Shown: positions 6,800 through 63,218 of the stretch, one piece after another | How positions within the stretch are numbered: position 1 is the first letter of the stretch | How the letters are laid out: each line of letters begins with the position of its first letter | Assembly (NCBI RefSeq): GCF_006345805.1 | Contig: NC_042998.1 | Coordinates: 102,052,001 to 102,116,000, forward strand | DNA from: Octopus sinensis | Lineage: Eukaryota | Length of the DNA: 64,000 nt | Reading direction: 5' to 3' | Position numbers and translations under genes: made by a program | The notes under the pieces: model-generated | Database searches by the model: none | Told to the model about the DNA's origin: nothing | What the model saw: only the letters and a program-made list of their open reading frames with translations

Positions 6800-8728
6800 A
6801 TTCAGATTTAAATGTCACCGTGTGAATACATACATGCATCTAATAACACACTTGCGTACGAAGTCTGATATTTAGAGTTAAGTGGATGGATACAGAGTGA
6901 ATGCATTATGTGTAGTTCAATTGTATATAAATTGCCTTGCCTTGAAAAAATAGCAATGCACCAAAAATGAATGTGCATAGATATTGCCACTCGTATACAG
7001 GCCATGCGTATACTCCTATTTGACCTGCGATGTTATACAAAATTATGTGTTTATAAGAATTTTACCCGATTCCACAGAGATAGGAATATGCTCTGTGTAA
7101 TCTCTTGCTCGTTTCGTTAGAGAAAAGTAATATTTCAAGAGGTTTCAATATTTGAAAACAAAGAAATCTAAAACTATAGAAAATATGAATATAATAACTT
7201 CGAGCGAATACAAAACAGATTATTTCCTCTGTGGAACATATTTCACTTCTTTCAGATTCTTTATTTCACCTATCACATCAATAAAAGCTGAATAATATAT
7301 AGTAATGCACACGCCCTGAAATAATTTTCATATCCATGAACATATAGATACTTGCCTGTTCTTTACTAGTTCTTATATATTCGAGTATATCAGAAATCAT
7401 GCCCGTGCACTTACACACTCGTATATTCCGTGGAAGTTAAATTGTAATTCAATGTTGTTGCTTTGTAAAAATGCAGGGAATAAAGTTAGCGAACATACAT
7501 GATGTATGCATCAGTTCATGCAATTTATCCATCTGCCTGTCTGTTATTCTGTCTATCATCATGTCATTCTATATAACTACACACACTCACAGCCACAGGC
7601 GCGCGCACGCATATATGAATTTGTGTTGCAAGATTCCTGATGTGAAATCGTTAAACAGATATTGTTGTATTTCGGGATGGTCTTATTCTCCTGATTTTTT
7701 TTTTGCATATTTCTTGCCAAACACAAACACAACGAGATACCGAATTGTACCAAACTTTTAATTCCTGCCACAGTAGCAGAAAAAATGGTGGGAGGTGGGT
7801 CTAATGGAGAATGTCATACTGCTAGTAAGGACAATGACACACAAACAAGCCTGCACACACATACACACATACACACAAACACGGACGCAAACGCATGCGC
7901 ACATAAAGATACACATCATAGGAGACTAGAATGAAATGAGTGGAGCAAGAGCACACACGAAGACGGAAATTGTCGACGAAGAGACACAGATGGTCACGAG
8001 TTAGAATAAGAACAGTACTAAACGAGTGAAGAACAAACATATGGTGCATGTTTTTATTTGGCAAAAAAACAAAGAAGTAAAATATGACCATCCCGCAATA
8101 CAACAACATATATATGTATACACACTAAAATAAGGTATTATGCCTTTATACCTTATTCAATGAAATGCAAAATATAATATATTATACTATATTGTATTCT
8201 CTTCTCTTAATTTTCCTCTGTTCACTCTGTGTTTTTTCTATGTCCTCATTCTCCGCGTCTTTCGTGGACACCACCATAATCGAAATTTCTCAGTCTTATC
8301 ATTAATGGTGCGAAGTCGATTATTACCATTTGGTCGATAACTGCTGAAGAATTAGGGACCTTCTGTGTCTGTCTCCTCTCCTCTCCGAAATATATACTTT
8401 TCAAAGCGAAACAGTCACTGATCTCATATATACAAAAAAAATTATTTCCAAATCTCTAAACGAGAAACATTCATTAACAGTACTCTAGAGTAAAAATTAT
8501 TTTTCCAACATAATGTGGCAGTCCTGATTAGGACGAATGTTACTCATATTTATCCTCAGGAGACATCGTCTCCAGCTGATAATCGATGCACTATCTGCGC
8601 CCTTATCCGTGACTGTGTGTCAAATTGAAAATTATACATTTCAAACAAGTCTGTCGGAATGTAGTAAACGCATCTGATAAGAAACCAATAAGGTCCGAAA
8701 ATCGATTCAGATTGTTCATCATATTTTT

Positions 8729-8863
8729 GGCGTAGGAGTGGCTGAGTGGTAGGTAGCTTGCTTACCAACCACATGGGTTCGAGTTTTCTCTTCTACTATA
8801 GCCTCGGGTCGGCCAAATCCTTGTGAGTGGATTTGGTAGACGGAAACTGAAAGAAGCCCGTCG

Positions 8864-8865
<2 letters not shown>
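8729..8865 (+). mobile_element. tRNA-derived SINE family A, 5' half (internally deleted)
   Basis: GGCGTAGGAGTGGCTGAGTGGTAG (A box), GGTTCGAGT (B-box-like), then CCTTGTGAGTGGATTTGGTAGACGGAAACTGAAAGAAGCCCGTCG running into (TA)n. Homologous copies at 16821 and 63268(-). Confidence 0.85.
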
Positions 8866-8894
<29 letters not shown>

Positions 8895-9043
8895 AAATAG
8901 AAAGATGAATCTTCTTGTAACAGATTATTCAAAAGGTTTAACCGATACCTGGGTAGCAAAAATCCGGGGACGCAGCTCCGTCTGATGCCAGTTTAACGCG
9001 CAGTAGGAATAATAACAGTAATAATGATAAAAGCGCCAGTACA

Positions 9044-9772
9044 GTGACTGATAACCTCAGTACCAGCCAGGGATTAAATAATAGGTTTAGCGATAGAAGT
9101 AATGGAGATATCATTAGTGTTAGTAATGGTAATAGTCAGGTGAGCGCTGTTCGGGTCATTAATGTAGAGAGTCCTAATAGCAATTTTAGCATCCTTTCCG
9201 GGAATAGCAGGTCCACGGATACTAGCAATTACAGCGCTCTCAGTGATAGGGAAGACACAGGGGTTGGTCCGTTAATTAATAATGAGGAATATAAAGTAGT
9301 AAGCGGCCGCAGTTCTCACAATCAATATAGTAACAGTAACGCAGTTTTAATATCAGAAGCTAATCCCAATAGAATAAGGTTCTTGTCGAGTAACTCCAAG
9401 ATCAGAAATGCCATTTACCAATGCAAGATTTACACGGATTCAGATGTCTACTCGTATGTCGGGGCCTCATCGTCAAAATTGGCCTTGAGAATTTCGAACC
9501 ATTTCGCGACTTTTCGCGACGTGAATAAATACCAAGCTACGGGACTTAGCAAGCTTATATGGCGTTTGAAGAACGCGAATTCAGCTTTTAGGCTGGAATG
9601 GCCGATTTTGTCGGTGGCCCTCCCATTTGATAGGGGCAGAAGGCGGTGCAATCTTTGTATCTCTGAGCTTTTCCACATATTGTTCGCCAGAGACCGGTTG
9701 GTAAATGGTCTTTTACAGTCGGCTTTTCGATGTCCCCATTGGAGGCGTCATACATATCTTACATATAAATGA
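9044..9772 (+). CDS. PLE C-terminal region: Asn/Ser-rich linker plus GIY-YIG endonuclease
   Basis: 'AIYQCKI...YVGASS...RISNHFATF...ATGLSKLIWRLK...LEWPIL...CNLCISELFHIL...VN...CPH' gives the GIY-YIG core with CxxC..E and C.H. No RT upstream, so truncated. Confidence 0.85.
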   Translation: MTDNLSTSQGLNNRFSDRSNGDIISVSNGNSQVSAVRVINVESPNSNFSILSGNSRSTDTSNYSALSDREDTGVGPLINNEEYKVVSGRSSHNQYSNSNAVLISEANPNRIRFLSSNSKIRNAIYQCKIYTDSDVYSYVGASSSKLALRISNHFATFRDVNKYQATGLSKLIWRLKNANSAFRLEWPILSVALPFDRGRRRCNLCISELFHILFARDRLVNGLLQSAFRCPHWRRHTYLTYK

Positions 9773-10353
9773 TACCTAAGACAATTAACACCTAGTTACC
9801 CTACTAAAATGAAAATAATCTTTGGAAATAATTTTTGAAAAAGCTTTTTAAGAAATCTATGAATAACCCTTGCAAGGGGAAATTACTCCCATTAGGCGTG
9901 GAACTATATATGCCATTAGGATTCTTTGACGATGTTAAATTTTGACAAGCAGGCCGAGTCGAACACACGAACACAAAAAATTCTTTCAGCCGCTTGACTG
10001 GTTTTTTCAGCAGTGGTCATTTTGTAGCCCCCCTCGCCAGCACACGACCACGCAAACATAGGCCATCACACACATACATGCTTATAGGAGGCTTTTGGCT
10101 CGCCCCCAAAAATACACCCAGTATTCTTAAATTTTTCAGAACATTAGTGTTGGTCACACAGAGCATCCCCACACCCCTTGCTTCTACCGACTAGATCTGA
10201 CCGCCGCCTGACCTGTAGATATTTTCAACGCACCAAATCCCCGATTTCAACGTACATTGATAAACAGTTCAGCCATGGGCTCCTAAGGAGCATCTTCGCT
10301 CGAATTGCTGTGCCTCTGTTTTGTTTTGTCCTGTCAACGGAATTCCTGTTTTT

Positions 10354-10433
10354 TTCCTGAAGAGAAAGCCGCAATATGGTACCCTTATTTAAACAGAATT
10401 TGGAAATGTGTGGCCTTCGAAACATGTGTAGAA
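10354..10433 (+). ncRNA. Type I hammerhead ribozyme
   Basis: ttc-CTGAAGA-gaaagccgca...tgtggccttc-GAAAC-atgt-GTA-gaa. Stem II arms pair with one mismatch; ACATGT palindrome in stem III. Confidence 0.8.
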
Positions 10434-10486
10434 TGTAATAAAAGGTATTCTGTACAATCTTCGTTCAACTCCATTTATTCCATTCA

Positions 10487-10552
<66 letters not shown>

Positions 10553-10553
<1 letters not shown>

Positions 10554-10790
10554 GTGTGTATGTGTGTGTTTGTGTGCCTGTGTTGGTCCCCCCAACATCG
10601 CTTGACATCTGATGCTGGTGTGTTTACGTTGCCGTAACGTAGCAGGTCGGCAAAAGAGACCGATAGAATAAGTAGTGGGCTCACAAAAAATTAAGTCCTG
10701 GGGTCGATTTGCTCGACTAAAGGCGGTGAGCCAGCATGCCCACAGTCAAATGATTGAAACACGTAAAAGAGTAAAAGAAAAAAGAGTAAA
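10553..10790 (+). mobile_element. SINE family A, 3' half
   Basis: GTGTTGGTCCCCCAACATCGCTTGAC...GGGGTCGATTTGCTCGAC...GGCGGTGAGCCAGCATGCCCACAGTCAAATGATTGAAAC plus an A/AG-rich tail. Homologous to 18100-18322 and 62565-62720(-). Confidence 0.85.
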
Positions 10791-13995: not shown

Positions 13996-14058
<63 letters not shown>

Positions 14059-14083
14059 ATATATACATACATATATATATATT

Positions 14084-14589
14084 ACAATTATTCGGTAGCC
14101 ATGATAAAACTCCGAGTTTCGGATGCCGAGGTGGAAATCCATTTATATAGACGTGTGTATGAATCTTTATGGTGCGCGTGTGTGTGTTGGGGGTTTCTAT
14201 GTATATACGTATACATTTGGTGAATGGTGAGAGTCAGGATGTTTACGTTTTCAAGTGAGGTGTGATGAATGTATACTTTCAGGCGCACGCCCGTGGGTGT
14301 GCGGGCGTGCATTGTAGGTATGAATAGACGCGCTTATGCGAATACTGTGAACGTTTTTACCCCCTTATTTACGGTCATTCAAACAGCGCTTTTGTCATAA
14401 TAACGGTCATGTTTCATAGCATTTTCCGATGGCCGGATAACTGAAGAGATAGTGGCGTAGATGTCCACCTCGGCATCCGAAACTCGGAGTTTTATCATGG
14501 CTACCGAATAATTGTCACATATTATATTTACAGATAAATTCCTCTATTTTCATAATATCGAAGTTTCTCTCCTTTCTTTTGTTGTCTTA

Positions 14590-14592
<3 letters not shown>
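14084..14592 (+). mobile_element. Non-coding PLE-derived element with 56-bp inverted repeat and HHR, inserted in (TA)n
   Basis: 14084-14139 is the reverse complement of 14460-14515 (one mismatch). HHR at 14436-14496, 3' tail to ~14592, (TA)n on both flanks. Confidence 0.8.
14436..14496 (+). ncRNA. Type I hammerhead ribozyme
   Basis: gataa-CTGAAGA-...gtgg...ccac...atcc-GAAAC-tcgga-GTT-ttatc. Stem I gataa/ttatc is perfect; stem II is partly deleted. Confidence 0.75.
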
Positions 14593-14643
<51 letters not shown>

Positions 14644-14817: not shown

Positions 14818-14872
<55 letters not shown>

Positions 14873-17021: not shown

Positions 17022-17119
<98 letters not shown>

Positions 17120-17139
17120 CATATACATATATATACGTT

Positions 17140-18060
17140 AAATAAAAGGAACATGAAAGCCAAAGCTGTGTAGAAGTTACATTTTATAAATGTCCTGAAA
17201 AGAGAAAGTAGAGTCTTACATCTGTTTCTGGGATATTAGGGATATCCCTTCATCAGAGGCGATGTGAGATGGTTAAATAGAGCGAAATATTAGAGTTCAA
17301 TATGAGCAGTTGTTTTATAAAAAGGAAGAAAATAAGGAGTATATAGGGAGATAGGAGAATGAATGTAAAAATAGAAAATAAAAATGTATAAGATGTTATA
17401 GTTGCAGTTCCATTATCCAAGAAAAGTGGTGTGTAAAAGTGGTAAAAATGCTTCCTGTCCGTGGTATGTAAATTCCAATAGCAGTTCATATTTTGTCATC
17501 ATAAATGGAAAGTATGGAGACGTAGATTCCTCGTGCTGTTCATTCAAAGAGGTTTTGTTCTGTGAAAGAAAATTTAAGAACGTATTTGTAGTATTAAGTG
17601 GTAGTAAATTCATCCGCATACGCACGCATATGCATGCCCATATGATATGTGATCTGTGGTTATTTAGGTTGTATTTAGATTTATGCTGAAAACCGTCGGA
17701 TTAAATCCAAGTTTCACGACGATTATACCTTCATATGGTTTAGAGAAGTGTAAATAATCCAATGAAAAGAAGACAACTACTTACTCTTCACCAAATCATA
17801 TGATGGTATAATCGCCATGAAATTTGGGTTATCTACACCTGAATTATTCCAGCTTTGGTCTGGATCTCAACAGTGCTGATAGCCCAGTATTCGGGTCGAG
17901 TGCTTCTCTGGAAATACCCCAAATTCACACCCAACTGACCTTAGCCATTTGCTCTATACCAAGTATACACTTCGTATATTTGAACTTATCCGATTGAGCG
18001 CTGAAAGGGTCTTTCCAAAACGATGAAGAGAATTCATATTGATGCGCCTCTGAAAGGTAT
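17140..18060 (-). mobile_element. Decayed PLE fragment (GIY-YIG relic plus pseudo-LTR with HHR)
   Basis: HHR at 17213-17260(-). A GIY-YIG-like 'WRLYHH' relic lies near 17800. Sits between the two SINE halves. Confidence 0.6.
17213..17260 (-). ncRNA. Type I hammerhead ribozyme
   Basis: Minus strand reads gcct-CTGATGA-agggata tccctaa tatccca-GAAAC-agat-GTA-agac. Stem II gggata/tatccc; stem III is one change from CAGCTG. Confidence 0.8.
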
Positions 18061-27189: not shown

Positions 27190-27191
<2 letters not shown>

Positions 27192-27345
27192 CAAAGTAGA
27201 GGTGTAAGGCACCGCGCGAGTGGAATTATATATGAAAGAAAGTTTGAAAATGCAATTTTAAAAGATGTTAATTTACTTTACCGGTTTCACTTTTTTAGAA
27301 AAAGATTGTCAAAATTAACATGTAAAAGCATGGTTGTGTTAGGTA
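27190..27345 (-). mobile_element. PLE pseudo-LTR relic with decayed HHR (27265-27321)
   Basis: Minus strand reads atgttaatt-TTGACAA-tctttttct aaaaaagt-GAAA-CCGG-TA-...aattaacat. Ends at (TA)n. Confidence 0.55.
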
Positions 27346-27494
27346 CTGGTTGTCACAAAATATTACAATATATATATATACATTATTTGATGATAATAAC
27401 ATGTTAAAACAGTTTACAAGGGAAAATCATGGGAAAATATAAAAAAAATTAACAAGTTCATTAAAATATTGGCCACAAAAGATTCATCTCAGGA

Positions 27495-28017: not shown

Positions 28018-28277
28018 AAGTAATATTTATTCCCACATCAATATGGCGGTTCGACGTTAATAGCGTCTTAACCCCGGGTAAATCGTAGATCTACCGCCGG
28101 CTCGTTACCGGTGCAATCTTCACCCTGTATATATTACAAGCAGGGGAGCTAACCCCTACCATCCTCTAGCAGACAACGGTATCACGAGACCGAACGTTTT
28201 CTGGCTACTTGTGCCCATCCTCAGTCGTGAACACCCTACCCCTAGCAAATAGTAGAGATTCTCCTCAGCTCGCAATA
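28018..28277 (-). mobile_element. Short non-coding HHR-bearing element (solo pseudo-LTR / retrozyme-like) in (TA)n
   Basis: GC-richer ~260-bp island flanked by (TA)n, containing an HHR at 28182-28230. Confidence 0.7.
28182..28230 (-). ncRNA. Type I hammerhead ribozyme
   Basis: Minus strand reads tcacga-CTGAGGA-tgggcac aa gtagcca-GAAAAC-gttcg-GTC-tcgtga. Perfect 6-bp stem I; one likely substitution in stem III. Confidence 0.75.
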
Positions 28278-28919
28278 TATATATATACGAAAAAAAAGAA
28301 AGAAGCGACCATCGGACACTTATATTGCAACAAGCACACAAAAAGACTTTTCTTGTGGCGTCCCCCTTTTGTAAGTGATTACACAAATGAAAATTTAAAC
28401 TTTAAATAAGATGAGCAAAATGAAATATTAACACAAAATTGTAATATTTTATTTAAGGCTTAATTCAATTAATCATGTTCAGCTAGAAACTTTAAACCTC
28501 CCCCTATCAAGAAACATGTAGAATGTGTTTGTGTCTCTTACCGTTTGTTTTAAAAATAAATTTGAAATCTGCTCTTTTTTTTGAATAACCATGTATACCT
28601 GCTGACTCGGAAACCAATTACGTATCTCTAACTCCTGCCTCAGCTATGAAATTGGAACCTAACTGATGAATAATTATAGCACTTACGCAACATAACTATT
28701 GTTTTAGATCATCAGTGATTGGTTTAGGTCAAAATATTCTTTATACGTATATTAGTCCAGGGCTCGATTTCTTCGACTAAATGGTAGTGCTCCAGCATGT
28801 CCACAGTGAAAGTGCTTGAAGCAAGTAAGGGAAGAAAAGAATATATATATATACATATACACACGCACCTGCACAAACACACACACACACATATATCTAT
28901 CTATATATATATATATATA

Positions 28920-29159
28920 TGATAATAATTATTATTTGAGGGAATAAAATCCAAACTTACAAGGAAAAAGAATTCAATTTAGAAATCAAATTTCACACAA
29001 TATAATATATATAAAATATTAGAAAAAAAACACCTTTTATCAATTCAAAATGAATACTTAAATTACAAGAATAATATAATGCATATAATAGGTATAAAAA
29101 CGACACGTGTTTCGCTGCTATATTTAAGAAATGATTATAGTAGTAGATAAATCACTTGC

Positions 29160-30159: not shown

Positions 30160-30800
30160 AATGGTCAAGAGGTTTCATACGTGTAAGTTATCTAAAAACA
30201 AATGAAATCCTTTGAGAAGAGGATTTACAATTTTATCAAAATATGCTACTAGTTTCAGTCTCTGAAAATCATGTATTTTAAAAACTTTTAGTAATGGTGA
30301 AGCACAAGAGAAAAGAAATTAAAATTAATTAAATTAATTTAATCATTCATGTTATCGGTTCTGCATGTTCAATTGTTTTTCTTACAAAAATCACATGATG
30401 CTGAAATTTTGTTTACTCCCGATTGTTGCTGAGTTGTCGTATCAGAGTAGCAGGACTGACTGTTAGCAGCAGTGGTAATAACAGCAGCAGCAGCAGCAGA
30501 GCCTATTTGTGCTGCAGCAGTAGTAATGATGTCAGTGTCGATAGTAGACGAGGTGTTATAACTAGTTGCAGCATTTGCTGTGATGGCATAAGCAAAAGTT
30601 CCAGTAGAGTTGGCGGTTGATATCCCATTTTGTCTTCCCCAAGTATTTAAAAGTGGCCGGTACTTGTTTATATGAGTTGTTTCTTTGCTCATGCATCACT
30701 GCCGTTTTGTGTAATCGCTAAATTAATATACATTTTCCATTATATATTGTTTTTACATTAGCAGTCTCAGTACATTCACTGACTACTTTTTGAAGATATT
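30160..30800 (-). mobile_element. Decayed PLE: GIY-YIG C-terminus plus decayed HHR (30242-30296)
   Basis: 'SKETTHINKYRPLLN' matches the GIY-YIG end motif KE..FI.KY.P.LN. Downstream: CTAAAA-agtttttaaaat..attttcagagact-GAAAC-TA-GTA. Confidence 0.5.
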
Positions 30801-36890: not shown

Positions 36891-36942
36891 TGAGAACGTA
36901 CGTTTCAAGATTAGTCAACACGACACTTCTTTCATCAGCTCA
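36891..36942 (-). ncRNA. Type I hammerhead ribozyme (intact)
   Basis: tgag-CTGATGA-aaga...tctt-GAAAC-gtac-GTT-ctca on the minus strand. Confidence 0.9.
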
Positions 36943-37874: not shown

Positions 37875-37926
37875 TGAGCTGATGAAAGAAGTGTCGTGTT
37901 GACTAATCTTGAAACGTACGTTCTCA
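37875..37926 (+). ncRNA. Type I hammerhead ribozyme (intact)
   Basis: tgag-CTGATGA-aagaagtgtcgtgttgactaatctt-GAAAC-gtac-GTT-ctca. Stem I tgag/ctca, stem II aaga/tctt, palindromic ACGTACGT stem III. Confidence 0.9.
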
Positions 37927-38949: not shown

Positions 38950-39140
38950 TTATTATATAGAAGGAGCTTCTACAGGACTAGAACTGTTTCATTCAAGAGA
39001 AATCTTCAGTTCCTGAAGATTTCTCTTGAATGAAACAGTTCTAGTCCTGTAGAAGCTCCTTCTATATAATAAATTAATTTTACTCTGCTATGTATTGAGT
39101 ACCTTATTTACTGTGGTTAACCCCGAATCAACCCGGGACC

Positions 39141-39145
<5 letters not shown>
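38950..39145 (+). mobile_element. Perfect 60-bp-arm hairpin plus 3' tail; PLE pseudo-LTR end with HHR-like core
   Basis: 38950-39009 is the exact reverse complement of 39013-39072, with loop TTC. The right arm begins CTGAAGA-tttctcttgaat-GAAAC...GTC. (TA)n on both flanks. Confidence 0.75.
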
Positions 39146-44041: not shown

Positions 44042-46085
44042 ATATATATATATATCTATATATATATATATGGCGAAATTCTTATGAAGTATTAGAATGG
44101 TTTAACTCTCTAGCTAACACTAGTAGTATCTCTTTTATTCAGTTTGATATTAATAATTATTATTCTAGTATTTCCCCCATTTTGGTAAATAAATCGCTCA
44201 TTTTTACCATGAATTGCTCCCTCATATCTAGAGATGAAATCGATATAGTACTATTAGCTAGAAAAACTATTATAGAATTTGAAGGTAAATTATGAACCAG
44301 AGCAGATACCCCTAATAATTTCGATATACCCATGAGTTCTAGTGATTCGGTTGAGATAACTAATTTGGTGGGGACATATCTATTAAAGGGCATAAAAAGG
44401 GAAATCCCTGAATTACAAGAGGTCTATATAGGGATGATGCTCTGTTTGTTATTCCTAATAATAATAAATCTAGCATTGAATGGATTAGAAAGAAAATTAA
44501 CAAGTTCTTTAAAGATTTTAACCTTAGCATAACTTATGAACCTGGCACTAAGATAGTCAATTTCCTGGATATTACATTAGACCTTAACTCTAAGCTGCAT
44601 TACCCATTTACAAAGGAAGGTGAAATCACTAGATACGTAAATAAATTATCTAATCATCCCCCAAATATAATAAAATCTTTGGCTAGAAATATTTCCCTAA
44701 GAATTTCCAAACTATCATCTAATAATGATATATTTAACTTTCACTCTAAACACTATAATACAGCATTATCTAAAGCAGGATATAACCAGGAGATTACCTT
44801 TCTTGATAAGGATAGCTTGCATATTCCTAATAATGATGGGAACATTAACTACATAAACATGAATATAGATCATGCCCATAATAAAAATAATAATAGATTT
44901 ATGGTGACAAAGAATCCAGTGTGCAAACCTAATCATAAAGATAAAAATATTGACCAGGGCATAAGTACCTTTGATAAGGCTATTCTGGATAAATCTAAAA
45001 AGCATAAAAATAAAAGTAATATGATTAATAATTTTCGTGGGATCAATAATAATTCAACTAACCCTAACTCTAATTTAAGAAAATATAATAAAGAAAATAT
45101 AATATGGTTGAATTTTCCTTTCAACTGGGCGATCTTATCGGATATATATGGCAGATTCTATTCAATACTAGAAAAAATTTTCCAGCCTCTCATAGATATC
45201 ATAGAATAATTTCTAAGAGAACGGTTAGGATTTCAACCCTCCCAAATATGTCCACTATAATAGCTAGAATTAATAATAAAAACATTAAGTCAGCCAGGAG
45301 TAATAAGTCTGATATCAACAGGAATACCAACAACGATTATAATGATAGAATCATAAATAAAAATAATAACAATAATAATAATTATCAAAATAAGAGCAGT
45401 ATCAACAGCAAGGATATAACTAATATTAATAGGAGTAATAATAATGATAATAATACGGGCAATACAAATAGAAATAATATCAGTAATGAAGATAATAATT
45501 ATATCTATAACAGTAATAAGCATTCAGATACAAATATAAGCAATAATAATAACAATACCAATAACGTGGGTAATTGTGATATCGCTATGGCAGATCTAAA
45601 TGATAGTGTAAACGGACCGACAAATAGTAGCCCAACTTCAGATAATAGTATTACCTATAATAACGAAAATAATACTCATAATAATTTGAATAACAGCAAT
45701 ATGACAGATCTATCCTTAAACAATTCTAGATTTGAAAATTATCCCCATTGCTGAAATTGTAGGATTAAGTCAAAATGTCCGGCATCTGGTCGGTGTGGGG
45801 TCCATAATGTAATCTATAACTGTACTATAACAACTTCGAATAGTAATTTTTTTTATTTAGGCTGTACGATAAATTTTAAGCAAAGAGTTAGCAATCATCT
45901 CTCCTTTTTTAAGTTAGATCATAAAGCTGGTTCCACCACACTTTCCAGTAAAATTTGGGAGCTCAAAACTAATAATATTAAATATAACCTCAAATGGGAA
46001 ATAGTTAGTAAGGTAGCGCCTTATAGAAATAACAGGGTGGGTTGTCAGCTTTGTTCCATGGAGACATATGAGATTCTAAAGCATA

Positions 46086-47241
46086 CGAGGGGCGTTCAAT
46101 AAGTAATGCCTCTGGCCCACTTGCCGTTGTTTAATCTAGCTGAAATTTTGCATGTGCAATTATTTATATCTCTATAGAGTAAGTGGCAAATTACAGCTCT
46201 GAACTAATTGTGGTTTCCGATTTACAGGTGTTTGAACTGAGTCAAGTGGGAAATGGAGCCTGGTGAGTGTCGAGCAGTGATCCGGTTTTTGTATTTGAAA
46301 GGACGCACACCACGGGAGACTTTTGATGAAATGAAAGTAACTTATGGTGATGATGCCCCATCATATGACCTTGTAAAAAGCTGGCATCGTGAATTCAAAC
46401 ATGGTCGGAACTCTGTGGAAACAGCTCCCAGATATGGTCGCCCCCCTTCTGCCATTGATGAGGCATCTGTCTGTCAAGTTGAGGCTGCCATTTTGGAAGA
46501 TCGACGCATAACTATTCGCCAAATAGCCCATGAGGTCAAGATTAGTACCGGGTCTGTGGAAACTATCATTCATGACTATTTGCATATGCAAAAGGTGTCT
46601 GCCAGATGGATTCCCAGGTTTCTCACACATTTCCAGAAGCAAGAACGCGTCGATTGCTCGAGGATGAATTTGGAGATGTGCCAAGAAGATGAGTCAAAAT
46701 TTTTCAAAAGACTGATCACACAGGATAAAACCTGGGTCCATCACTATGATCCATAGACCAAAGCCCACTCAATGCAGTGGAAGCACCGTGACTCACCTCC
46801 TCCAAAGAAGGCAAGGGTGCAGCCCACCGCTGGCAAGGTCATGCTTACAAAGGGTGCCACAATTACAGGAGTCTATTATGCTTCACTTTTGAGGAAATTA
46901 AGAGAAGCTATCAAAATCAAGAGGCGGGGCAAGATCAGCAAAGGCATCCTCCTCCTGCAGGACAACGCTCCGATCCACAACTCGCGTGTCGCCAGATCAG
47001 AAGCACAGGCGTATGGCTATGAACTCATCCCCCATCCCCCCTACTCTCCTGACCTTGCACCCTCTGATTTTCACCTCTTCCCAGCCATGAGGTTGATTTT
47101 GAAAGGAAAGCTTTTCCCAGATGATGCAGCCTTGATTTCTGAAGTCACGTCGTGGTTGGAGGACCAAGCTGGGGTCTTCTACAAAAACGCTCTACTGCTA
47201 TGGGAAGTGGGTCAGGGGCATTACTTATTGAACGCCCCTCG
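46086..47241 (+). mobile_element. Mariner DD34D transposon (irritans-like), defective
   Basis: ~37-bp TIRs starting CGAGGGGCGTTCAATAAGTAATGCC, with TA duplicated at 46084-85 and 47242-43. Confidence 0.95.
46253..47190 (+). pseudogene. Mariner transposase pseudogene
   Basis: HTH N-terminus, 'ARWIPR', 'TQDKTW', 'QDNAP' and 'HPPYSPDLAPSDFHLF'. Stop at 46754-56, internal deletion after 'GKVML', truncated C-terminus. Confidence 0.93.
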
Positions 47242-48246
47242 TAGAAGAGATAAAAATCTAGTAAATAACCGTATAGAATTATGTGTCTCTTGTATTCACT
47301 CAAAAATCAAAACTCTAAAATATTTTAAATAGAAATAAATAGAAATTTAAAGGTTCTCCCACTGCTGTTCTTTCTAACTGTACCTTTTTATATAAAAAAT
47401 AAATAGTATTTGTACTATGCTAACTTTTAATTGACTTTATAGTCAATTCAATTAACGTTACTTAAATCATATAAATTTGCTAAACTTTCTTAATTCTATT
47501 CTAAATTTAATATGTAATACTATTCTCTTAAGGATACATTTAATTTCCACTATATTTTTGAATAAGTAAAATCCCCCTACTAACTGCTATTGATTTTATT
47601 TGACCTCTAGATGTTGACCTAAATTCTTTCTTACAATATATAAACAAAAGTTAAAATAGAAACAATAAAAATAAATAATCCTCTTTTCTTGTCTTATCCT
47701 TAACTTTCTTACTGTATCTTCCTCTACTGATAACCTTTGACCCCTATAATGCTTTCCTTTGATCTCTGAGAGGCTCCAAGTTCAGAGCCGGTGGTCAAAC
47801 TTACCGTTCTTTTATAAATTCAAGATTCCTTCAACATTGACCTAGATTTTCTGTCACCACAGAAACAGACTAATCTTTGTCTGTGGCACCCTTATTCCCT
47901 CTTACTCCCCCACTTCTTTCCTCCCACAAGGTCCTTTACTTGGCTAAACCTACGTCGCTATATTCCTTACTACTACTAAATTCCGTTTGCAACAGTTAGA
48001 TGTGAACTGAACCAGTGTGTTAACAACACCTTTCCTCATGTTTCCCGGAATTTATATCAACACCTTTATGGTTGGATTTACCTTCTCTGAGAATTTAATA
48101 ATCTTTTTTAAAATATTTTAAAAAACTGTGCATTGTTGTAAAACATATAAAGTCTGCTTATTACCTTACTTCGAATTCATAGAACTCACTCTGAATACTT
48201 CATAAGGATATTTACACTTTCTAGGATGGTTGGAAAACATATATGT

Positions 48247-48338
48247 GATTTGGCTGAGGAATACTTGACATTATATTTGCTGTAATATTTGCAGCTTTAA
48301 ATAAAAATGTTCTCAGTATGAAACAATTGTACCGAATT
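48247..48338 (+). ncRNA. Type I hammerhead ribozyme in the PLE pseudo-LTR
   Basis: gatttgg-CTGAGGA-atact...agtat-GAAAC-aatt-GTA-ccgaatt. 7-bp stem I (with G-U pairs); palindromic ACAATTGT stem III. Confidence 0.88.
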
Positions 48339-48510
48339 ACTGATCCAATCTTGTTACTTTTTTCTTGGTTATAATCACCCCATATATTTTTACGGTTAAT
48401 ACCATATAGAATTCTGGCGCATCTAAGTTAAGTACCATATTCATTTGAATTCATTTGAATTCATTTGAATCTTAATTGTTTTGCTGAAATTATATATATA
48501 AATATATATA

Positions 48511-49912: not shown

Positions 49913-51868
49913 AAATGGCAAACAGTGCTACAGCTCCAAACAAAAGAGGGACTCATGAAAACCAAAGACATCCCCATTAGGAGAGGAATATTCCAGGGAG
50001 ACACGCTCTCTCCACTCCTTTTCTGCTTGGCACTGTCACCTCTATCTGATATGCTAAATACAACTGGATGCGGATATAAATGTTACGGCAAAACGATCAG
50101 CCACCTTTTATATATGGATGACATAAAACTATACGCTGCAAATGACAAACAGCTGGAAACACTATTAAAGACAGTTCATGGATTTACCAAAGAAATAGAG
50201 ATGAAATTTGGATTAGAAAAATGCGCCAAAGTAACCCTGAAAAGAGGAAAACTAGTTAAGAGTAGCAACATCACACTAGATAAAACCAATGAAATAAAAG
50301 AACTAGGCCAAAGCCAACCTTACAAATACTTAGGAATCCATGAACTAGATAAGACACAAAACACACAAATGAAAGAGAAAATAAAAAACATTATTATAGA
50401 CGAGTTAGATCAATACTAAAAATAGAGGTCAATGCTAAAAACAAGATAATAGGTATTAACACTTTAGCTGTCCCAGTTATAAGTTACAGCTACAATATCC
50501 TTAACTGGACACTAAATGAACTGACCAAAATAGATAGGAAAACAAGAAAAATAATGACAGGATCTAGGATGCATCACCCAAAATCTGACATAGAAAGACT
50601 ATATATACAACGTATAGAAGGTGGTAGAGGCCTTATACAGCTGGAAAACTACTATAAAATAACCACCATAGGACTGCAAAAATATCTACTTCAGAAGGAA
50701 GGAAAACTGATACAAATAGCGGCAAAACACGAGCAAAACAAAACAAATGTTCTCAGTATTTAAGGAAGCTGACAAATACAAACAAGAAATCATACCACCT
50801 AATAAAAATGAAGAAGAAGAAGAAGAAGAAGAAGAAGAAGAAGAAGAAGAAGAAGAAGAAGAAGAAGAAGAAGAAGATGAAGAAAAAGAAAAAGAAGAAG
50901 AAGAAGAAGATGAAGAAGAAGAAAAAGAAGAAGAAGAAGAAGATGAAGAAACATCAAAAGCTATAAAACAAATGAAATCCAAACTAAAAATAGAACAGCA
51001 ACGAACCATGATAAAACGATGGCAAGAAATGGTGAATACTGGACTAAACTAAACGCAAAAGAAATAGACAAAGAAAAATCCCAGCAATTGTTGAGAAGCT
51101 CAGGACTCAACGCAGAGACAGAGGGATTTTTATTTGCAGCGCAAGGCCAAAGCCTCCCCATCAGAAATTACCAAAAACATGTAATGAAAGGAAATATAAC
51201 AAGTAACTGCAGAATATGTGGAGATGGACAAGAAACAATAAATCATATTATCTCTGGCTGCCCAGTCCTGGCTAAGAAGGAATATATTCACAGACATGAC
51301 AGAGTTGGAACCTACATACACTGGAATCTATGCCAACATTATGGAATAATAACAGAAAAAGATGGTATAGGCACACACCAGAAAAGGTCACAGAAAACGA
51401 GAAGCAACCATACTCTGGGATATGCCGATACACACAGATAGAAAAATTTAGGCTAACAAAAGAGATATAGTTGTCAGAGATCATGAAGAAAAAAATGCTT
51501 TCTAATTGATGCATCAATACCGGCAGATGACAACGTGTCTCTAAAAGAACTGGAGAAACTTTCAAAATACAAAGACCTGGAAATAGAGGTAAGCAGAATG
51601 TGGAATCTAAAAACAGAAACAATTCCTATCATAGTAGGTGCATTAGGCATGATAAAAAAATATTCAGACAAATACATAACAAAAACACCAGGACTTTCAA
51701 ACACATATAACATACAGAAAATTGCACTACTAGGCACTGCACACGTCCTACGCAAAACACTTTCCATACAATAACCATCAGAGCATCACAAATCACAGCA
51801 CATACCTAAGGCACACAGAGCTGCGCTCGGTAGTGAGGTGAAAGCACGCTATAAAACTAAAACTACTG
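49913..51868 (+). mobile_element. 5'-truncated R4/Dong non-LTR retrotransposon (RT, CCHC knuckle, REL endonuclease, 3' UTR)
   Basis: 'RGIFQGDTLSPLLFC', 'HLLYMDDIKLY', 'CRICG...ETINHIISGC', 'YIHRHD', 'RDIVV...LIDASIP...KELEKLSKYKDL' and 'IPIIVGALG'. Flanked by (TAA)n. Several frameshifts. Confidence 0.93.
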
Positions 51869-52616
51869 AATAATAATAATAATAATGATAATAATAATAA
51901 TAATAATGATAACAACAATGAAAGGAAACAGGTGGAGCCTCATAGGCTGATTGATAATGATGCATCTAATAATGGCGTCACAATATAATCACTGGTAATT
52001 GTGCAAGCTGATAATCGCAACCTCATATAAGTGACAATGAAAAAACAAAACATTGTAAATAACGGTGGGAATGAAACTGAAGCCAACAATGATGACAGTG
52101 GTACACCCTGTTGGCTCAGTGATTCTGCTCTGGTTCCAGTTTGACGATATTCAGACAAATACATAACAAAAACACCAGGACTTTCAAACACATATAACAT
52201 ACAGAAAATTGCACTACTAGGCACTGCACACATCCTACGCAAAACACTTTCCATACAATAACCATCAGAGCATCACAAATCACAGCACATACCTAAGGCA
52301 CACAGAGCTGCGCTCGGTAGTGAAGTGAAAGCACGCTATAAAACTAAAACTACTGAATAATAATAATAATAATGATAACAACAATGAAAGGAAACAGGTG
52401 GAGCCTCATAGGCTGATTGATAATGATGCATCTAATAATGGCGTCACAATATAATCACTGGTAATTGTGCAAGCTGATAATCGCAACCTCATATAAGTGA
52501 CAATGAAAAAACAAAACATTGTAAATAACGGTGGGAATGAAACTGAAGCCAACAATGATGACAGTGGTACACCCGGTTGGCTCAGTGATTCTGCTCTGGT
52601 TCCAGTTTGACGATAT
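51660..52616. repeat. Tandem duplication of ~487/466 bp spanning the junction of two R4 elements
   Basis: ATATTCAGACAAATAC...CCAGTTTGACG starts at both 51660 and 52147. Copies differ by a few substitutions and by (TAA)n length. Confidence 0.95.
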
Positions 52617-58570: not shown

Positions 58571-60844
58571 ACTCATATTGCCGGGATCTATGACAGCAGA
58601 ATACCATTATTGAGGATATTAAGCATTATACTTTATCAGTGAGAAATCCATGTTTTTTAGCTGACAGCATCAATATTAGAAAACAATAATTTCTGCTTTC
58701 AATGGAGTTCTAGATATATAGGTTTTTTATTATGAAGACTTGAAATATAAAAAAAAATGAGGAGCCAGTGTAAATGTTTTTCAAGAATTTGTATAGATTA
58801 TATGCCAAGACACCAAATAAGCGTCATGAAATATAGTCTTCAGCTTCTAAATGATGTCTTAGCCACCTGTATATTTTACTATCGTTTGTTCCCCTTAGAT
58901 GCTTCCTTTTCTGTTTAGTTTTGTGTTTCGCATTTCCTATTCATTCTTAATTCCATTGCATTTTTTCTTTATCTTCATTTCTTTTTCCTTTCGATATTTA
59001 TTACGCATTTTTGGATTTTATTCATTTTCGCAGCATTTTTTCACGATACTCACTGTTTATAGTTTTTTAACATATCTCTTATCATCTATTTCTGTTTTTG
59101 TCATATGTACTGTTATAATTTAGAAATATTCGTTTTATTAATCATTTATTTATTATTATCTCTTGTTTCTCCCGGAATCACTTCCATCATATTTTGCAGT
59201 CAAAAGAAAATATCTTTCAGTATCGTATTTCTCACTATCATTATTTGTGTTATATTTGCTTTTTTGCTTTTATTCTCTCGTTAATATCTTGTTTCTTCTG
59301 CAGCATCTCCTGACTGCTTTCTTTTATTTTTTCCGTTACGTTTGGCGGGTTAGTATTCTTCATTCTTTCTAATCTCTCATTATCGTTCAAATTATCTCTT
59401 ACCTTTGTGCGTCTCTTTGATTCTGATCGATCTCCTCAAAGTCCATTTCAATTATTATTTCCTTTTCCATGTCTTTGTGAAATTATTTTTCTAACATCCA
59501 AGGTTTATGGGTACAACACGTGTCCGATTTCCTCAGCGCACGACATTACACGGGTATGAGTGATATGAGATACACTTCTAAATAATCTATACATATTCCT
59601 TCGACTAAAATATAAAATAGAAACAAAATAAAATCTTTGGATATAAGTCTGCAGAGTTCTGATTTACTTTGTTGAAGGGTACGCCAGTAATATGCAAACA
59701 AAATACACATACACACATGCTCAAGCATGAACGCATATGACAGTTCGTTTGTAAAATCTGCTATGTCTTTGCAAGACAAAAATTAAAAACAAGATGCATT
59801 GAATAACTAATTAAATATAATAAAAAAAGAAAATGGAGAAAGCTGTAAAGTAAGGAAACAGAAGACAAAGATGCTTAAATGTTAATCCGCGTCGTTTGAG
59901 TTCAATGAAAACAATGATTTCGACTAAGGAGTATTTCAATAGCAAACACATCTGTCAGGGAGTCAGTGAATCACAACATCTCACGCCTTTATTACATACC
60001 CTGTGCATATCATTCAAGAAAAATGACAGTATTTATCGTTGCAAGTATATGATATTCAACCGCGGCATTTGAAATGTCCGCGCTTATTTAATGGCTGGAA
60101 TTTCAGTCAAAAGTAACAAAGATGACCATGACTGGTTCCGCAGAATGACAATAACTACGTTGTTGCTCGTAAATGGATCGGGAAGCGTGATATTTCCCGC
60201 TTCTCCCACACAATTCAAGTGCATGAAATTACGGTAGTGGCTGTGTTTCATTGTCGTTGCTTTGCAGAATACTTCAATCATCCTAAAAACACCATTTTGA
60301 TTGTAATTGTGAGTTTACCAGTTATGAGTCAAGGAATGAATTGAAAGTTTCTTCTTAAGTGAGAACACACTATACACATATCTGGATCATCATTTCGATC
60401 TCAAAAAAACGCCAATTGGCAAGAAAAAAATGAAGCCTTTTGAGTTTGCATGAGAATGTTGTTGATAAAGAAAGTAGTAGAAAAGATTCCCAAACGGCGG
60501 TTTGCCAGGTGGCGAGGTGCGTCTCCAGGTCATGAAACAGATGCTCGGCATCGTGACTCGTAGTCCATCATGACGATATATTGCACGAGTCATCTGCAAT
60601 TGATCCTTTCAGAGACTTACTGCAACCAAACTATGGAAGAAAAATGGCTTCCTCTATATTCTATTTGTATGAAATGCAGATGCGACTAAATTTACATCCA
60701 TACACACACGCGCATACGTACATGTATATGTGTATGTATGTGTGAGTGTATGCATTTGTGCATGTATGTATGAATGTATGTATGAGTGTGTGTGTGTGTT
60801 TGTGTGTATATATATGTAGGAATATATATATGTATATATATTTG

Positions 60845-60892
<48 letters not shown>

Positions 60893-61006
60893 TATATTAT
60901 ATATATATATATATTTGTATATATTATATATATATAATATATATTATATAATTTGTATATATATATATATATTATATATATATATAATATATATATATAT
61001 ATAATA

Positions 61007-61048
<42 letters not shown>

Positions 61049-61059
61049 TATATATATAT

Positions 61060-61093
<34 letters not shown>

Positions 61094-61095
<2 letters not shown>

Positions 61096-61317
61096 GCGAG
61101 CTGGCAGAAACGTTAGCACGCCGGGCGAAATGCTTAGCCGTATTTCGTCTGCCGTTACGTTCTGGGTTCAAATTCCGCCGTGGTCGACTTTGCCTTTCAT
61201 CTTTTCGGGGTCGATAAATTAAGTACCAGTTACGCACTGGGGTCGATATAATCGACTTAATCCGTTTGTCTGTCCTCGTTTGTCCCCTCTGCGTTTAGCC
61301 CCTTGTGGGTAGTAAAG

Positions 61318-61320
<3 letters not shown>
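61094..61320 (+). mobile_element. tRNA-derived SINE family B, young copy in (TA)n
   Basis: TGGCAGAAACGTTAG (A-box-like), GGTTCAAATTCC (B box), and a body matching 23558-23762. Confidence 0.9.
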
Positions 61321-61351
<31 letters not shown>

Positions 61352-62564
61352 TTATAAATAAGGATAATATCGATATTATCAAGTGGCCAGCATGGAAATA
61401 AATACCATACAAAGGTAATAATTACAAATGTACCATACAGACACCCTTATTTTTAGTTATATATATTCATAATGATCATGCATACATATACATACACACA
61501 CACACACATATACATTCACCCTCGACTCTATGCATCTCTGCTAATTAAATATGTATTTATTTGTTTGTGTTTGTGTGTGTATGTGAGTGTGTGTTTGTGT
61601 AAATATGTGTAAGAATAGAAACAAATTTCATATTCATTGACGACAACTCGTGATCTCCGATGAACTAAATCGTTTATGGGTTGATCTGAAGCTTTAGGAA
61701 ACGTCTCTAGTTAAGTAATCCTCACCTGTAATGGAATAAAATATAACTTAGTTGCAAAGTAACCTTATTAGGCCCTCGACCATTTTATTTTCAAACTTTC
61801 TAAGCATACATATAATATGTTAAGGATGACCGTGCTTTTTGGCATGCTGCGCAAGACGATACAACTACAACTTTTCTGGTCGGAACCAGTAAGATGGTAA
61901 AATGTGTAAATCAGATTATATAAATAAGTTTAGAACAGATGCATTTAATGATGTATAAAAATATTCTCGAATAATTGAAAATTTTTTCTTAATTTAAAAA
62001 CGACAAAAAAAATGTAAAATCAAATTAATTTTTAAGGATTTTCAAATAAAGGAAAATAAGTTCGACAAATTAATAATTAATTTCACTAAATTAATTTACA
62101 GGCTTAAGGGGGAATTTGAAGTTTATTTGGGAAGCAGAGAGGAAATTATGGATCTTGTCGCACACAATATGACATAAACAATAAAATAATTAACAAATAT
62201 CCGAGTATATCATGCATAAACAATCAAATCGCCAATTTACACACGGCATATAGTAAAAGAATATGCAATACATTTCGTGCGTTGACATCAAAAATGTAAT
62301 AACGTTATGGAGCAGAAACAAATTTCATTATATACGACATCACGTTATATTAACAGCTACTATGCAAGTAATAATGCAACCACTCAGAGAATTGCAATTT
62401 AGTTCAGTATTTTGCCTTACAACCCGGTTCGAATTTCGATATCACTACGTCGTAACAATTTTGATATAGATTAAAATGTAAACCAGAACTTCCTCAAATT
62501 ATGTACCCCTAATTCTTAATGCTCTTAGACATAGCACAAGACTTTAAAACATACGTATCTTTTA

Positions 62565-62720
62565 TCTTTCACTCCTTGTTTCAGTCATTTGATTGCGACC
62601 ATGCTGGAACACCACCTCGAAGGGTTTTTGTCGAACCACTAGGTTACGTGGACCTAAACACATCAACACCTGTTGTCAAGCAGTGCTGAGGGTCAAGAAC
62701 AAACACAAAGACACACACAT
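62565..62720 (-). mobile_element. SINE family A, 3' half
   Basis: GTTTCAGTCATTTGATTGCGACCATGCTGGAACACC is the reverse complement of the SINE A tail. Confidence 0.8.
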
Positions 62721-62734
62721 ATACATATATATAT

Positions 62735-63218
62735 ATCGTGAAGTATATTTGCCACTTAATTGTGGCTAACCCTTAAGGGTGGATGCTACTGTAGCTTGTA
62801 TCCCCAGGAAGAAACCTCCTCCAGCTAGCTATTGAAACACTTTCTGTGCCCTATCAGTATTTGCATTTTTCCAAGATCAGTGACTTTTCGTTACTGGAAA
62901 AAGGATATATATATTGTCATTGGGAACCACTTCACATCGACAACCGGTAACTGTCACACGCTGATGACGAGCCAATGCCAAGAAACTCGGGTCCGTGTGT
63001 ATCACATCAGGTTGGAGATGGGAAGGTTGACTTCCCTATGGAAATACTGATAGGGCACAGAAAGTGTGTCAATAGCTAGCTGGAAGAGGTGTATTCCTGG
63101 GGCTACAAGCTACAGTAGTATCCATCCTTAAGGATTAGCCACATTTAAGTGGCAAATAGGCTTCACGATGTCGTGCAGCCACTGTTTATACCTTGCTCTG
63201 TAATATATTATTGCTTAT
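62735..63218 (+). mobile_element. Non-coding element: ~132-bp inverted repeats enclosing an HHR, plus 3' tail
   Basis: 62735-62866 approximates the reverse complement of 63038-63169. HHR at 62955-62999; tail to (TA)n. Confidence 0.85.
62955..62999 (+). ncRNA. Type I hammerhead ribozyme
   Basis: cacacg-CTGATGA-cgagccaatgccaa-GAAAC-tcgg-GTC-cgtgtg. Perfect 6-bp stem I; stem II is decayed. Confidence 0.8.

What the first reader, a model, noticed from the sequence alone, without database searches (positions are those of the whole stretch)
8674..62999. High density of unrelated hammerhead ribozymes with palindromic stem III: a (TA)n-targeting PLE/retrozyme system
Seen: CTGANGA...GAAAC..GTH cores with paired stems at 10354(+), 14436(+), 17213(-), 28182(-), 36891(-), 37875(+), 48247(+) and 62955(+). 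Partial or decayed ones lie at 8674(+), 27265(-), 29102(-), 30242(-), 39013(+) and 47758(+). Flanking sequences differ between them, except the 36.9/37.9 kb pair. Stem III is nearly always a different palindrome or one change from one (ACATGT, CGTACG, CAATTG, CACGTG, CCGG, CTAG, ATCGAT, CAGaTG, CtCGGG). Established: minimal type I HHRs with palindromic loop III occur in Penelope pseudo-LTRs and animal retrozymes and are thought to cleave as dimers. Inference: this genome carries many independent HHR-bearing families, most reduced to non-coding elements that insert into (TA)n. Standard ORF and repeat annotation would miss them.
Basis: partly seen in the sequence, partly recalled or inferred. 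Interest (0 to 1): 0.8.

Follow-up and report, generated by a model that had tools for sequence, protein, structure and literature searches.

The report
Hammerhead ribozymes of TA-targeting Penelope retroelements
The window holds 13 real hammerhead-ribozyme motifs from 12 repeat families that mostly end in TA microsatellites; they are the tail ends of already described Penelope-like jumping genes and their small non-coding hitch-hikers, are predicted to cut RNA only in pairs, and one old family carries a core base pair (A3:U8) that I did not find reported from nature.

Summary
Observation largely confirmed; the system is mostly known. 13 of 14 listed sites belong to genuine type I hammerhead families; 47758 is a deletion artefact. 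Descriptor hits: window 6 versus 0.11 shuffled; an evenly spaced 1-Mb genome sample 23 versus 0.9, about 60,000 genome-wide in at least 41 families. So this is a genome-wide load, not a local cluster. Stems covary, stem III is self-complementary (14 of 16), and 15 of 21 sampled motifs end within 250 nt of (TA)n (background 17%). Four are non-coding 306-557-nt tandem units (retrozymes). Two 'decayed' sites are core variants: 27312 has U3:A8 in 30 of 30 copies (known variant); 30295 has A3:U8 in most of 14 old copies, with a weak 2-bp stem I (not found in three literature searches). Rfam finds none of them. Cleavage, dimers and circles are inferred, not shown.

The parts
8669..8713 (+). Decayed hammerhead (core at 8674, predicted cut after 8708) of a non-coding family with a ~306-nt tandem unit; stem III AATCGATT; fragment 8648-8743
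8889..10489 (+). 5'-truncated Hydra-type PLE between (TA)n at 8864-8888 and 10490-10553; first 76 nt are an inverted piece of the family's 3' tail
8957..9772 (+). Open frame: low-complexity linker plus GIY-YIG endonuclease (9389-9769) with CxxC-E..N..CxH, no CCHH and no CxCX5C linker
10354..10433 (+). Intact-looking type I hammerhead in the 3' UTR (core 10357, cut after 10430), stem III ACATGTGT (self-complementary with G-U pairs)
14084..14591 (+). 5'-truncated Hydra-type PLE end between (TA)n arrays, with inverted piece 14084-14141
14436..14496 (+). Intact-looking hammerhead (core 14441, cut after 14491), stem III ACTC-G-GAGT
17136..17601 (-). 5'-truncated Hydra-type PLE end; mutated hammerhead at 17213-17260 (core 17256, cut after 17217; family stem III ACAGCTGT)
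27191..27484 (-). 5'-truncated Neptune-type PLE end; complete U3:A8 hammerhead at 27273-27318 (core TTGACAA at 27312, cut after 27279, stem III ACCGGT), one stem I mismatch in this copy
28019..28330 (-). Copy of a non-coding family with a ~348-nt tandem unit; mutated hammerhead at 28182-28230 (core 28224, cut after 28188)
28915..29159 (-). Copy truncated inside stem II (cut site 29102, stem III ACACGTGT); family joined to an inverted Hydra-type RT in one locus (L385)
30245..30297 (-). Decayed motif of an old family with A3:U8 core (ATGACTA in 9 of 14 copies), 2-bp stem I, stem III ACCGGT or CpG-decayed forms; Neptune-type endonuclease remnant upstream in L402 and L405
36607..38107 (.). One head-to-head insertion of a non-coding 557-nt tandem unit (retrozyme): minus arm to 37378, plus arm from 37408, (TA)n at both ends
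36891..36942 (-). Intact-looking hammerhead of the minus arm (core 36938, cut after 36895), stem III ACGTACGT
37875..37926 (+). Intact-looking hammerhead of the plus arm (core 37879, cut after 37922), stem III ACGTACGT
38960..39143 (+). Mirror pair of very short 3' ends between (TA)n arrays; hammerhead core 39013, cut after 39051, stem III ACAG-TTCTAGTC-CTGT; Hydra-type endonuclease 2.4 kb upstream in one locus (L213)
44072..48490 (+). 5'-truncated, broken Hydra-type PLE between (TA)n arrays: RT 44072-44810, N-rich linker, endonuclease 45731-46084 plus 47244-47332, 3' UTR
46086..47241 (+). Mariner transposon inserted at a TA inside the endonuclease (absent from L038, L046, L047, L058)
47758..47800 (+). 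Not a hammerhead: ordinary 3' UTR of the 44072-48490 element altered by a 29-nt deletion
48245..48340 (+). Intact-looking hammerhead (core 48254, cut after 48331), stem III ACAATTGT, stem I with compensatory change
62735..63215 (+). Copy of a non-coding family with a ~357-nt tandem unit, inverted piece 62735-62865; hammerhead 62955-62999 (core 62961, cut after 62993) with damaged stem II

Best explanation
The motifs are the 3'-end hammerheads of Penelope-like retroelements (Hydra-type and Neptune-type) and of four non-coding tandem repeat families that these elements likely mobilise; they sit mostly in (TA)n tracts as 5'-truncated, often head-to-head copies and are predicted to self-cleave only as pairs. 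Shown by sequence: fixed 3' ends abutting (TA)n, ladders of 5' truncation, inverted upstream pieces, two alternative 3' ends per family, endonuclease or RT upstream in eight families, fixed-length tandem units in four, covarying stems. Inferred: the element's GIY-YIG endonuclease nicks (TA)n and the RT starts at one of two internal sites of the RNA (target-primed reverse transcription), which leaves the optional tail; a tandem or multimeric transcript brings two hammerheads together, their palindromes form one 6-12-bp stem III, cleavage releases unit-length RNA that likely circularises and is copied into more-than-unit-length tandem insertions. The copies in this window are single or on opposite strands, so they are likely dead-on-arrival products that cannot pair in cis.
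For: Descriptor versus shuffles. Family alignments with intact cores in 17-30 of 27-30 aligned copies for nine families. Compensatory stem I changes: 48254 family TAG/CTA 21, TGG/CCG 4 of 30; 28224 family G-C 12, C-G 6 of 24 scored; 84% of cells paired against 25-39% for slid registers. (TA)n at a fixed 3' position in 26-30 of 30 loci for five families, 8-19 of 29-30 for five others, 2 of 12 for the oldest; 15 of 21 sample hits within 250 nt, background 16.6% (p 4e-8). Endonuclease collinear upstream: 10357 (L062, L071, L072), 48254 (L046, L047, L058), 14441 (L096, L107, L235), 17256 (L125, L129, L141), 27312 (L351, L369), 30295 (L402, L405). Tandem periods 552-562, 345-354, 355-359, 304-308 nt in several independent loci; longest ATG frames 38-73 aa. 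Stem III as a monomer hairpin costs about +2.4 kcal/mol, as a homoduplex gains 6-13; in a natural two-unit stretch the double-hammerhead fold is 10.4 kcal/mol below two monomers. Literature: PMC8557442, PMC4209133, PMC7229834, PMC11167929, 10.64898/2026.07.22.740005.
Against: No cleavage, dimer or circle was observed. Both hammerhead folds lie above the unconstrained minimum (-167.6 and -157.2 against -175.8). In the one PLE tested biochemically, hammerhead mutants did not affect insertion in vitro and no RNA-seq ends were seen at the cut (PMC11167929); 8 of 9 frog retrozyme dimers did not cleave in vitro. Within-family covariation is modest (3 pairs with double changes, 317 of 500 shuffles as high) and related copies share changes. 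Clades were assigned by motifs, not by a tree. Linkage to protein genes rests on one locus each for 29102 and 39013. No PLE partner was found for any of the four non-coding units. The protein-coding families are rarely tandem on one strand (0-4 of 30 loci), so how their hammerheads meet is unclear.
Confidence: 0.8

Rival explanations
1. The elements are as described, but hammerhead cleavage plays no necessary part in their copying; the motif is kept as a protein-binding or structural signal, or rides along.
For: Catalytic mutants did not change insertion by an anole PLE in vitro, and cleavage needed protein (PMC11167929). Craig et al. note hammerhead-less Naiads spread well. Weak in vitro activity of PLE hammerheads.
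Against: Core letters, the 3:8 pair (C:G, U:A, apparently A:U) and self-complementary stem III are kept across at least 39 unrelated sequence clusters, which is what selection for catalysis predicts.
Confidence: 0.15
2. The four tandem families are ordinary satellites that grew from PLE tails by unequal crossing-over at the DNA level, with no circular RNA stage.
For: Proposed for vertebrate retrozymes in the discussion of 10.64898/2026.07.22.740005. Units within one array are more alike than between arrays.
Against: Arrays are short (1-8 units), scattered over many contigs, end at the same unit positions in (TA)n, are 5'-truncated at variable points and come as head-to-head pairs: one insertion event each.
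Confidence: 0.12
3. Most families are independent non-coding elements without a coding parent.
For: Most genomic copies are short and carry no ORF; four families show no ORF at all.
Against: Longer copies of eight families run into Hydra- or Neptune-type endonuclease or RT sequence.
Confidence: 0.04
4. The motifs are chance matches in AT-rich DNA.
For: One listed site (47758) is such an artefact; the widest descriptor gives about 0.9 false hits per Mb.
Against: 0 of 200 shuffles reach the window count; 16 against 0.1 in the sample; family copies restore the damaged positions.
Confidence: 0.01

Closest known systems
Hydra clade of Penelope-like elements (Craig et al. 2021, PMC8557442; includes Hydra-1_Obim from an octopus)
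   Same: C-terminal GIY-YIG without CCHH, CxCX5C linker, CxxC and CxH around E and N, GLYRDD-type RT, (TA)n insertion, 3' hammerhead with short self-complementary stem III, inverted upstream copy and optional tail.
   Different: Many families rather than one per genome; elements longer than the usual <3 kb (one truncated copy is 3.26 kb without its mariner), with N-rich linker and microsatellite-rich UTRs; tails of about 43-157 nt rather than 30-40; the 10357 family has no CxCX5C linker yet 30 of 30 loci end in (TA)n.
Neptune clade of Penelope-like elements
   Same: CX4CxxC linker (fits CX2-5CxxC), CCHH endonuclease, YLDD RT motif upstream of the 27312 family; remnants upstream of the 30295 family.
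   Different: Their hammerheads here carry U3:A8 or A3:U8 and a 6-nt ACNNGT stem III. Neptune versus Nematis was not separated by a tree.
Minimal and palindromic-stem-III hammerheads of metazoan PLEs (Cervera and De la Pena 2014, PMC4209133)
   Same: Type I, weak or palindromic helix III, extra or mismatched base at the foot of helix II, mostly single truncated copies, pairs on opposite strands 100-700 bp apart, a U3:A8 variant (about 1,300 hits in Schistosoma).
   Different: Here helix III is usually an 8-nt palindrome and helix II is often long (up to ~75 nt); one family appears to have A3:U8.
Non-LTR retrozymes of animals (Cervera and de la Pena 2020, PMC7229834; Li, Clavereau and Pollet 2026 preprint)
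   Same: Non-coding, low-GC tandem units of about 300-560 nt, one type I hammerhead per unit, monomers to multimers, co-occurring with PLEs.
   Different: No cephalopod in the passages and sections read; here the arrays show PLE insertion marks (TA target, inversion, two 3' ends). Circular RNA not tested.

Membership tests
Type I hammerhead ribozyme | Core CUGANGA...GAAA...UH with three stems, open at stem I | tested here: met
   ten families with C3:G8, one with U3:A8
Type I hammerhead ribozyme | Stems kept by compensatory change | tested here: met
   (modest within families); different stem sequences across 39 clusters
Type I hammerhead ribozyme | Self-cleavage after H17 | not testable with these tools
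   only contigs were available
Type I hammerhead ribozyme (30295 family) | Watson-Crick 3:8 pair and a stable stem I | tested here: inconclusive
   A3 and U8 each in 12 of 14 copies by my reading; stem I only 2 bp with one compensatory copy (L410+); a competing 3' hairpin folds
Rfam hammerhead families | Match to an Rfam covariance model | tested here: not met
   no hammerhead row among 110 matches at E<=5
Hydra PLE | C-terminal GIY-YIG without CCHH, with CxxC and CxH beside E and N | tested here: met
   for 10357, 48254, 17256 families; for 14441
Hydra PLE | CxCX5C linker | tested here: inconclusive
   present in 48254 family (L047, L058; broken by a stop in the window copy) and 14441 family (L235); reduced in 17256; absent in 10357
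Hydra PLE | RT motifs RWK and DKT | tested here: inconclusive
   L385 reads RIKRKAYYF and SAKT at these places and follows the Hydra-1_Obim motif order by eye; W and D not kept
Hydra PLE | Insertion into (TA)n and a 3' hammerhead | tested here: met
Hydra PLE | Grouping with Hydra RTs in a tree | not tested
   reference proteins were seen only as text in the supplement
Neptune PLE | CX2-5CxxC linker and CCHH endonuclease after the RT | tested here: met
   L254, L351, L369 (27312 family); remnants in L402, L405 (30295 family)
Neptune PLE | Tree position apart from Nematis | not tested
   no reference set held
Non-LTR retrozyme | Non-coding tandem unit with a type I hammerhead in each unit | tested here: met
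   557-nt family: complete motifs in consecutive units; fixed periods in the 348-, 357- and 306-nt families; ORFs 38-73 aa
Non-LTR retrozyme | Expression as unit-length circular RNA | not testable with these tools
   no run on record as RNA, contigs only

The most novel reading that the evidence does not exclude
Within one Neptune-type lineage the hammerhead core pair moved from C3:G8 to U3:A8 and then flipped to A3:U8, so the 30295 family would be the first natural, once-active A3:U8 hammerhead; together with about 60,000 motifs in more than 40 families, a Hydra family that targets (TA)n without the linker thought to guide it, and four (TA)n-targeted retrozymes, this genome would be an unrecognised natural library of dimer-gated ribozymes that standard CUGANGA and Rfam searches undercount.
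Probability: 0.35. Interest if true: 0.6.

Novelty: new member of a known kind. Interest (0 to 1): 0.42.

Why it matters
Each ingredient is in print, so this is not a new system. What it adds is scale and variety in one genome: tens of thousands of ribozyme motifs that Rfam misses, young near-identical tandem arrays suited to testing the open question of what PLE hammerheads do (dimer-gated cleavage, circles), a natural counter-example to the idea that the Cys linker directs (TA)n targeting, and a candidate A3:U8 core that would widen the natural tolerance of the catalytic 3:8 pair and require wider search descriptors.

Tried and rejected
47758 as a second hammerhead of the 48254 element: rejected. 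A local cluster special to this window: not supported. Palindromes as family 'barcodes' driven apart by selection: not supported; 19 families with 8-nt perfect palindromes use 9 of 16 possible classes, 11.3 expected by chance (counts read, which lists 39 clusters), and several families share AATT, GTAC, ACGT or ATAT. 62735-63169 as a MITE: the arms are an inverted 3' piece of a tandem unit. A type III reading of the 30295 motif: no core follows its 3' hairpin. Genome search with the 39013 motif returned nothing, not even the window copy; its copies came from loci already held. The count of 101 insertions for the 62961 family was an artefact of a common neighbouring repeat in the queries; the recount is 2. 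The stem-I flag printed is unreliable; only the drawn structures were used. Expression: no RNA holder listed; four runs guessed as RNA cover the 557-nt unit with many short contigs, which shows neither expression, ends nor circles. Pfam found nothing on the 8957-9769 frame and only a sub-threshold GIY-YIG on 45755-46099. The homolog search returned one protein. Loci could not be extended, so full-length elements were not read. Papers not held: Lunse et al. 2016 (known here through the review PMC6765202) and Przybilski and Hammann 2007 (reference listing only). Supplements of the bioRxiv preprint and of PMC4209133, PMC3088659 and PMC7229834 were not read and may list cephalopod hammerheads or further core variants.

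Full report
Setting. The window lies in a 2.72-Gb animal genome (G000:C2:102052001-102116000), is 34% GC and is full of (TA)n and related microsatellites. The one protein homolog returned for the endonuclease at 45755 (79% identical) carries an octopus label from its source, so the host is likely an octopus.

Observation. A type I descriptor (CTGANGA, stem II, GAAA, stem III, UH, stem I of at least 3 bp) gave 6 hits in the window against 0.11 in 200 dinucleotide shuffles, none reaching 6. Rfam gave no hammerhead row among 110 matches at E<=5. I then searched the genome with 12 window segments; 11 returned 12 to 58 matches, of which up to 30 loci each were kept, from 12 to 2,457 first-look candidates; the 39013 search returned nothing and its copies were taken from held loci. 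Family copies repair the damage seen in single window copies, with intact CTGANGA in 17-30 of 27-30 aligned copies for nine families. Result: 13 of 14 listed sites are members of 12 hammerhead families; 47758 is 3' UTR sequence changed by a 29-nt deletion.

Genome-wide scale. In 100 evenly spaced 10-kb stretches (999,700 bases) a strict descriptor found 16 hits against 0.1 in 20 shuffles and a wider one 23 against 0.9 in 10 shuffles, about 60,000 genome-wide (95% range of the count 14.6-34.5 per Mb). All 333 hits in held loci fall in 39 clusters, 18 of them seen in the unbiased sample, 13 once and 5 twice; the 39013 and 30295 families are not among them, so at least 41. About one sample hit in 23 may be false. 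The window is about three times denser than the sample, P 0.02-0.05.

Stem III and (TA)n. Without requiring it, 14 of 16 sample hits have a fully self-complementary stem III, one is odd-length and one is a mutated copy. Of 39 cluster representatives 28 are perfect palindromes, 3 need G-U, 3 are odd-length and 5 other; part of this set came from a descriptor that favours palindromes. The usual 8-nt form costs about +2.4 kcal/mol as a hairpin and gains 6-13 as a homoduplex; in a natural two-unit stretch the double-hammerhead fold is 10.4 kcal/mol below two monomers, though both lie above the free minimum. Fifteen of 21 sample hits with at least 400 nt of downstream sequence have (TA)5 within 250 nt, background 16.6%. 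Families have fixed 3' ends at (TA)n, ladders of 5' truncation, inverted upstream copies in up to 20 of 30 loci, and two 3' ends about 43-157 nt apart. These are the marks of PLE insertion; the two ends match the two internal RT start sites shown for an anole PLE (PMC11167929, passages).

What carries them. The 10357 motif ends an element whose endonuclease frame is open at 8957-9772; the 48254 motif ends a broken RT-endonuclease element at 44072-48490, split by a mariner that four other copies lack. Endonuclease sequence is collinear upstream in three loci each for the 14441 and 17256 families, and in one locus for 39013; an inverted RT joins a 29102 copy in one locus. These proteins lack CCHH and have CxxC-E..N..CxH, mostly with a CxCX5C linker: the definition of the Hydra clade, described as inserting in (TA)n and bearing hammerheads (PMC8557442, sections 11 and 12 and passages; supplement sheets list Hydra-1_Obim and similar short stems III). 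The 27312 and 30295 families lead instead to a CX4CxxC linker, CCHH endonuclease and YLDD RT motif, Neptune-type. Four families show a fixed tandem period and no ORF over 73 aa: 557 nt (13 of 18 independent insertion sites by my grouping of the 30 overlapping loci), about 348, 357 and 306 nt. They fit non-LTR retrozymes (PMC7229834, passages; preprint 10.64898/2026.07.22.740005, parts 1-3 of 5).

Core variants. All 30 loci of the 27312 family have T at 3 and A at 8. A scan over all 16 combinations at these positions found only C:G and U:A enriched in held loci (48 and 35 distinct hits against at most 0.4 shuffled; the loci are enriched for the searched families). Three further U3:A8 families turned up, all with 6-nt stem III, two with Neptune-type endonuclease upstream in one locus each. 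Natural U3:A8 is known (PMC3088659, passages; PMC4209133, parts 1-2 of 4). The old 30295 family reads ATGACTA in 9 of 14 copies, keeps GAAA, a CpG-decaying ACCGGT and stem II, and has head-to-head pairs in 3 of 12 loci; stem I is only 2 bp, with one compensatory copy and a competing hairpin. Searches for A3-U8, C3A with G8U, and A3U8 or AUGANUA forms found nothing relevant; the library lacks most subscription papers. That any Watson-Crick 3:8 pair can support cleavage in vitro is recalled from Przybilski and Hammann 2007, of which I saw only the reference.

Mechanism. Shown: anatomy, linkage, target, covariation. Inferred from family knowledge: nicking of (TA)n, target-primed reverse transcription from two internal sites, dimer-gated cleavage of tandem transcripts (review PMC6765202, passages), circular intermediates. 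Against: weak or absent in vitro activity in published tests, and no need for cleavage in one in vitro insertion assay. The window's own copies are single or on opposite strands and likely inert.

Novelty. Searches for octopus with hammerhead and Penelope or retrozyme returned only Craig et al. and unrelated items; the giant squid genome paper lists 235 Rfam hammerhead loci (passage). Two earlier AI notes on other genomes describe similar PLE tails in TA tracts; they were not used as evidence. Verdict: real, well explained, new members of known kinds, with two small leads worth testing (A3:U8 core; linker-less TA targeting). Interest 0.42.

Noticed in passing
window:8957-9772 and L251:8564-8991: The endonuclease of the 10357 family has no cysteine in the 155 residues before it (no CxCX5C linker), also in a related subfamily, yet 30 of 30 loci end in (TA)n; bears on the proposal that the linker guides microsatellite targeting (mobilisation in trans not excluded).
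   Followed up: partly
window:46086-47241: Mariner transposon with inverted ends and TA duplication inside the PLE endonuclease; transposase frame broken by a stop near 46754.
   Followed up: partly
L042:2171(-), L077:3062(+), L132:1286(+), L367:2052(+); L083:1965(-), L209:1284(+); L120:659(+), L291:606(-), L294:4525(-), L057:871(-): Three more U3:A8 hammerhead families, all with 6-nt stem III, while only one C3:G8 hit with a 6-nt stem III was found (a deleted copy); may reflect shared ancestry.
   Followed up: partly
L096, L125, L213, L351, L369, L382 (upstream of the hammerheads): The long 3' UTRs of several families are themselves rich in (CA)n, (GT)n and (TA)n tracts, so these elements may spread microsatellites and new targets for themselves.
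   Followed up: no
P0001: A public protein named 'myelin gene regulatory factor-like A' is 79% identical to the PLE endonuclease at 45755-46084, so the name is likely a mis-annotation.
   Followed up: no
window:49907-55272: Broken non-LTR retrotransposon pieces (Pfam RVT_1, zf-RVT), with a 466-nt direct duplication around 51474-52272 and inserted (GAA)n and (TAA)n tracts.
   Followed up: no
window:57800-58102: Weak MULE transposase match (below the Pfam cut-off).
   Followed up: no
window:27538-27909 (-): 123-codon open frame with ordinary amino-acid make-up and no Pfam match; possibly a host exon.
   Followed up: no
window:17174-17201: Small internal inversion just 3' of the 17256 hammerhead, unique to this copy among those aligned.
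   Followed up: no
L092:2635-3087 (-) and L244:9742-9999: RT fragment of another PLE type (MDVISLY motif) upstream of a 14441-family copy; probably a nested neighbour.
   Followed up: no
L004-L013 (G000:C10:99.18 Mb): Array of eight nearly identical 557-nt units, four on each strand head to head: a young insertion suited to cleavage tests.
   Followed up: partly
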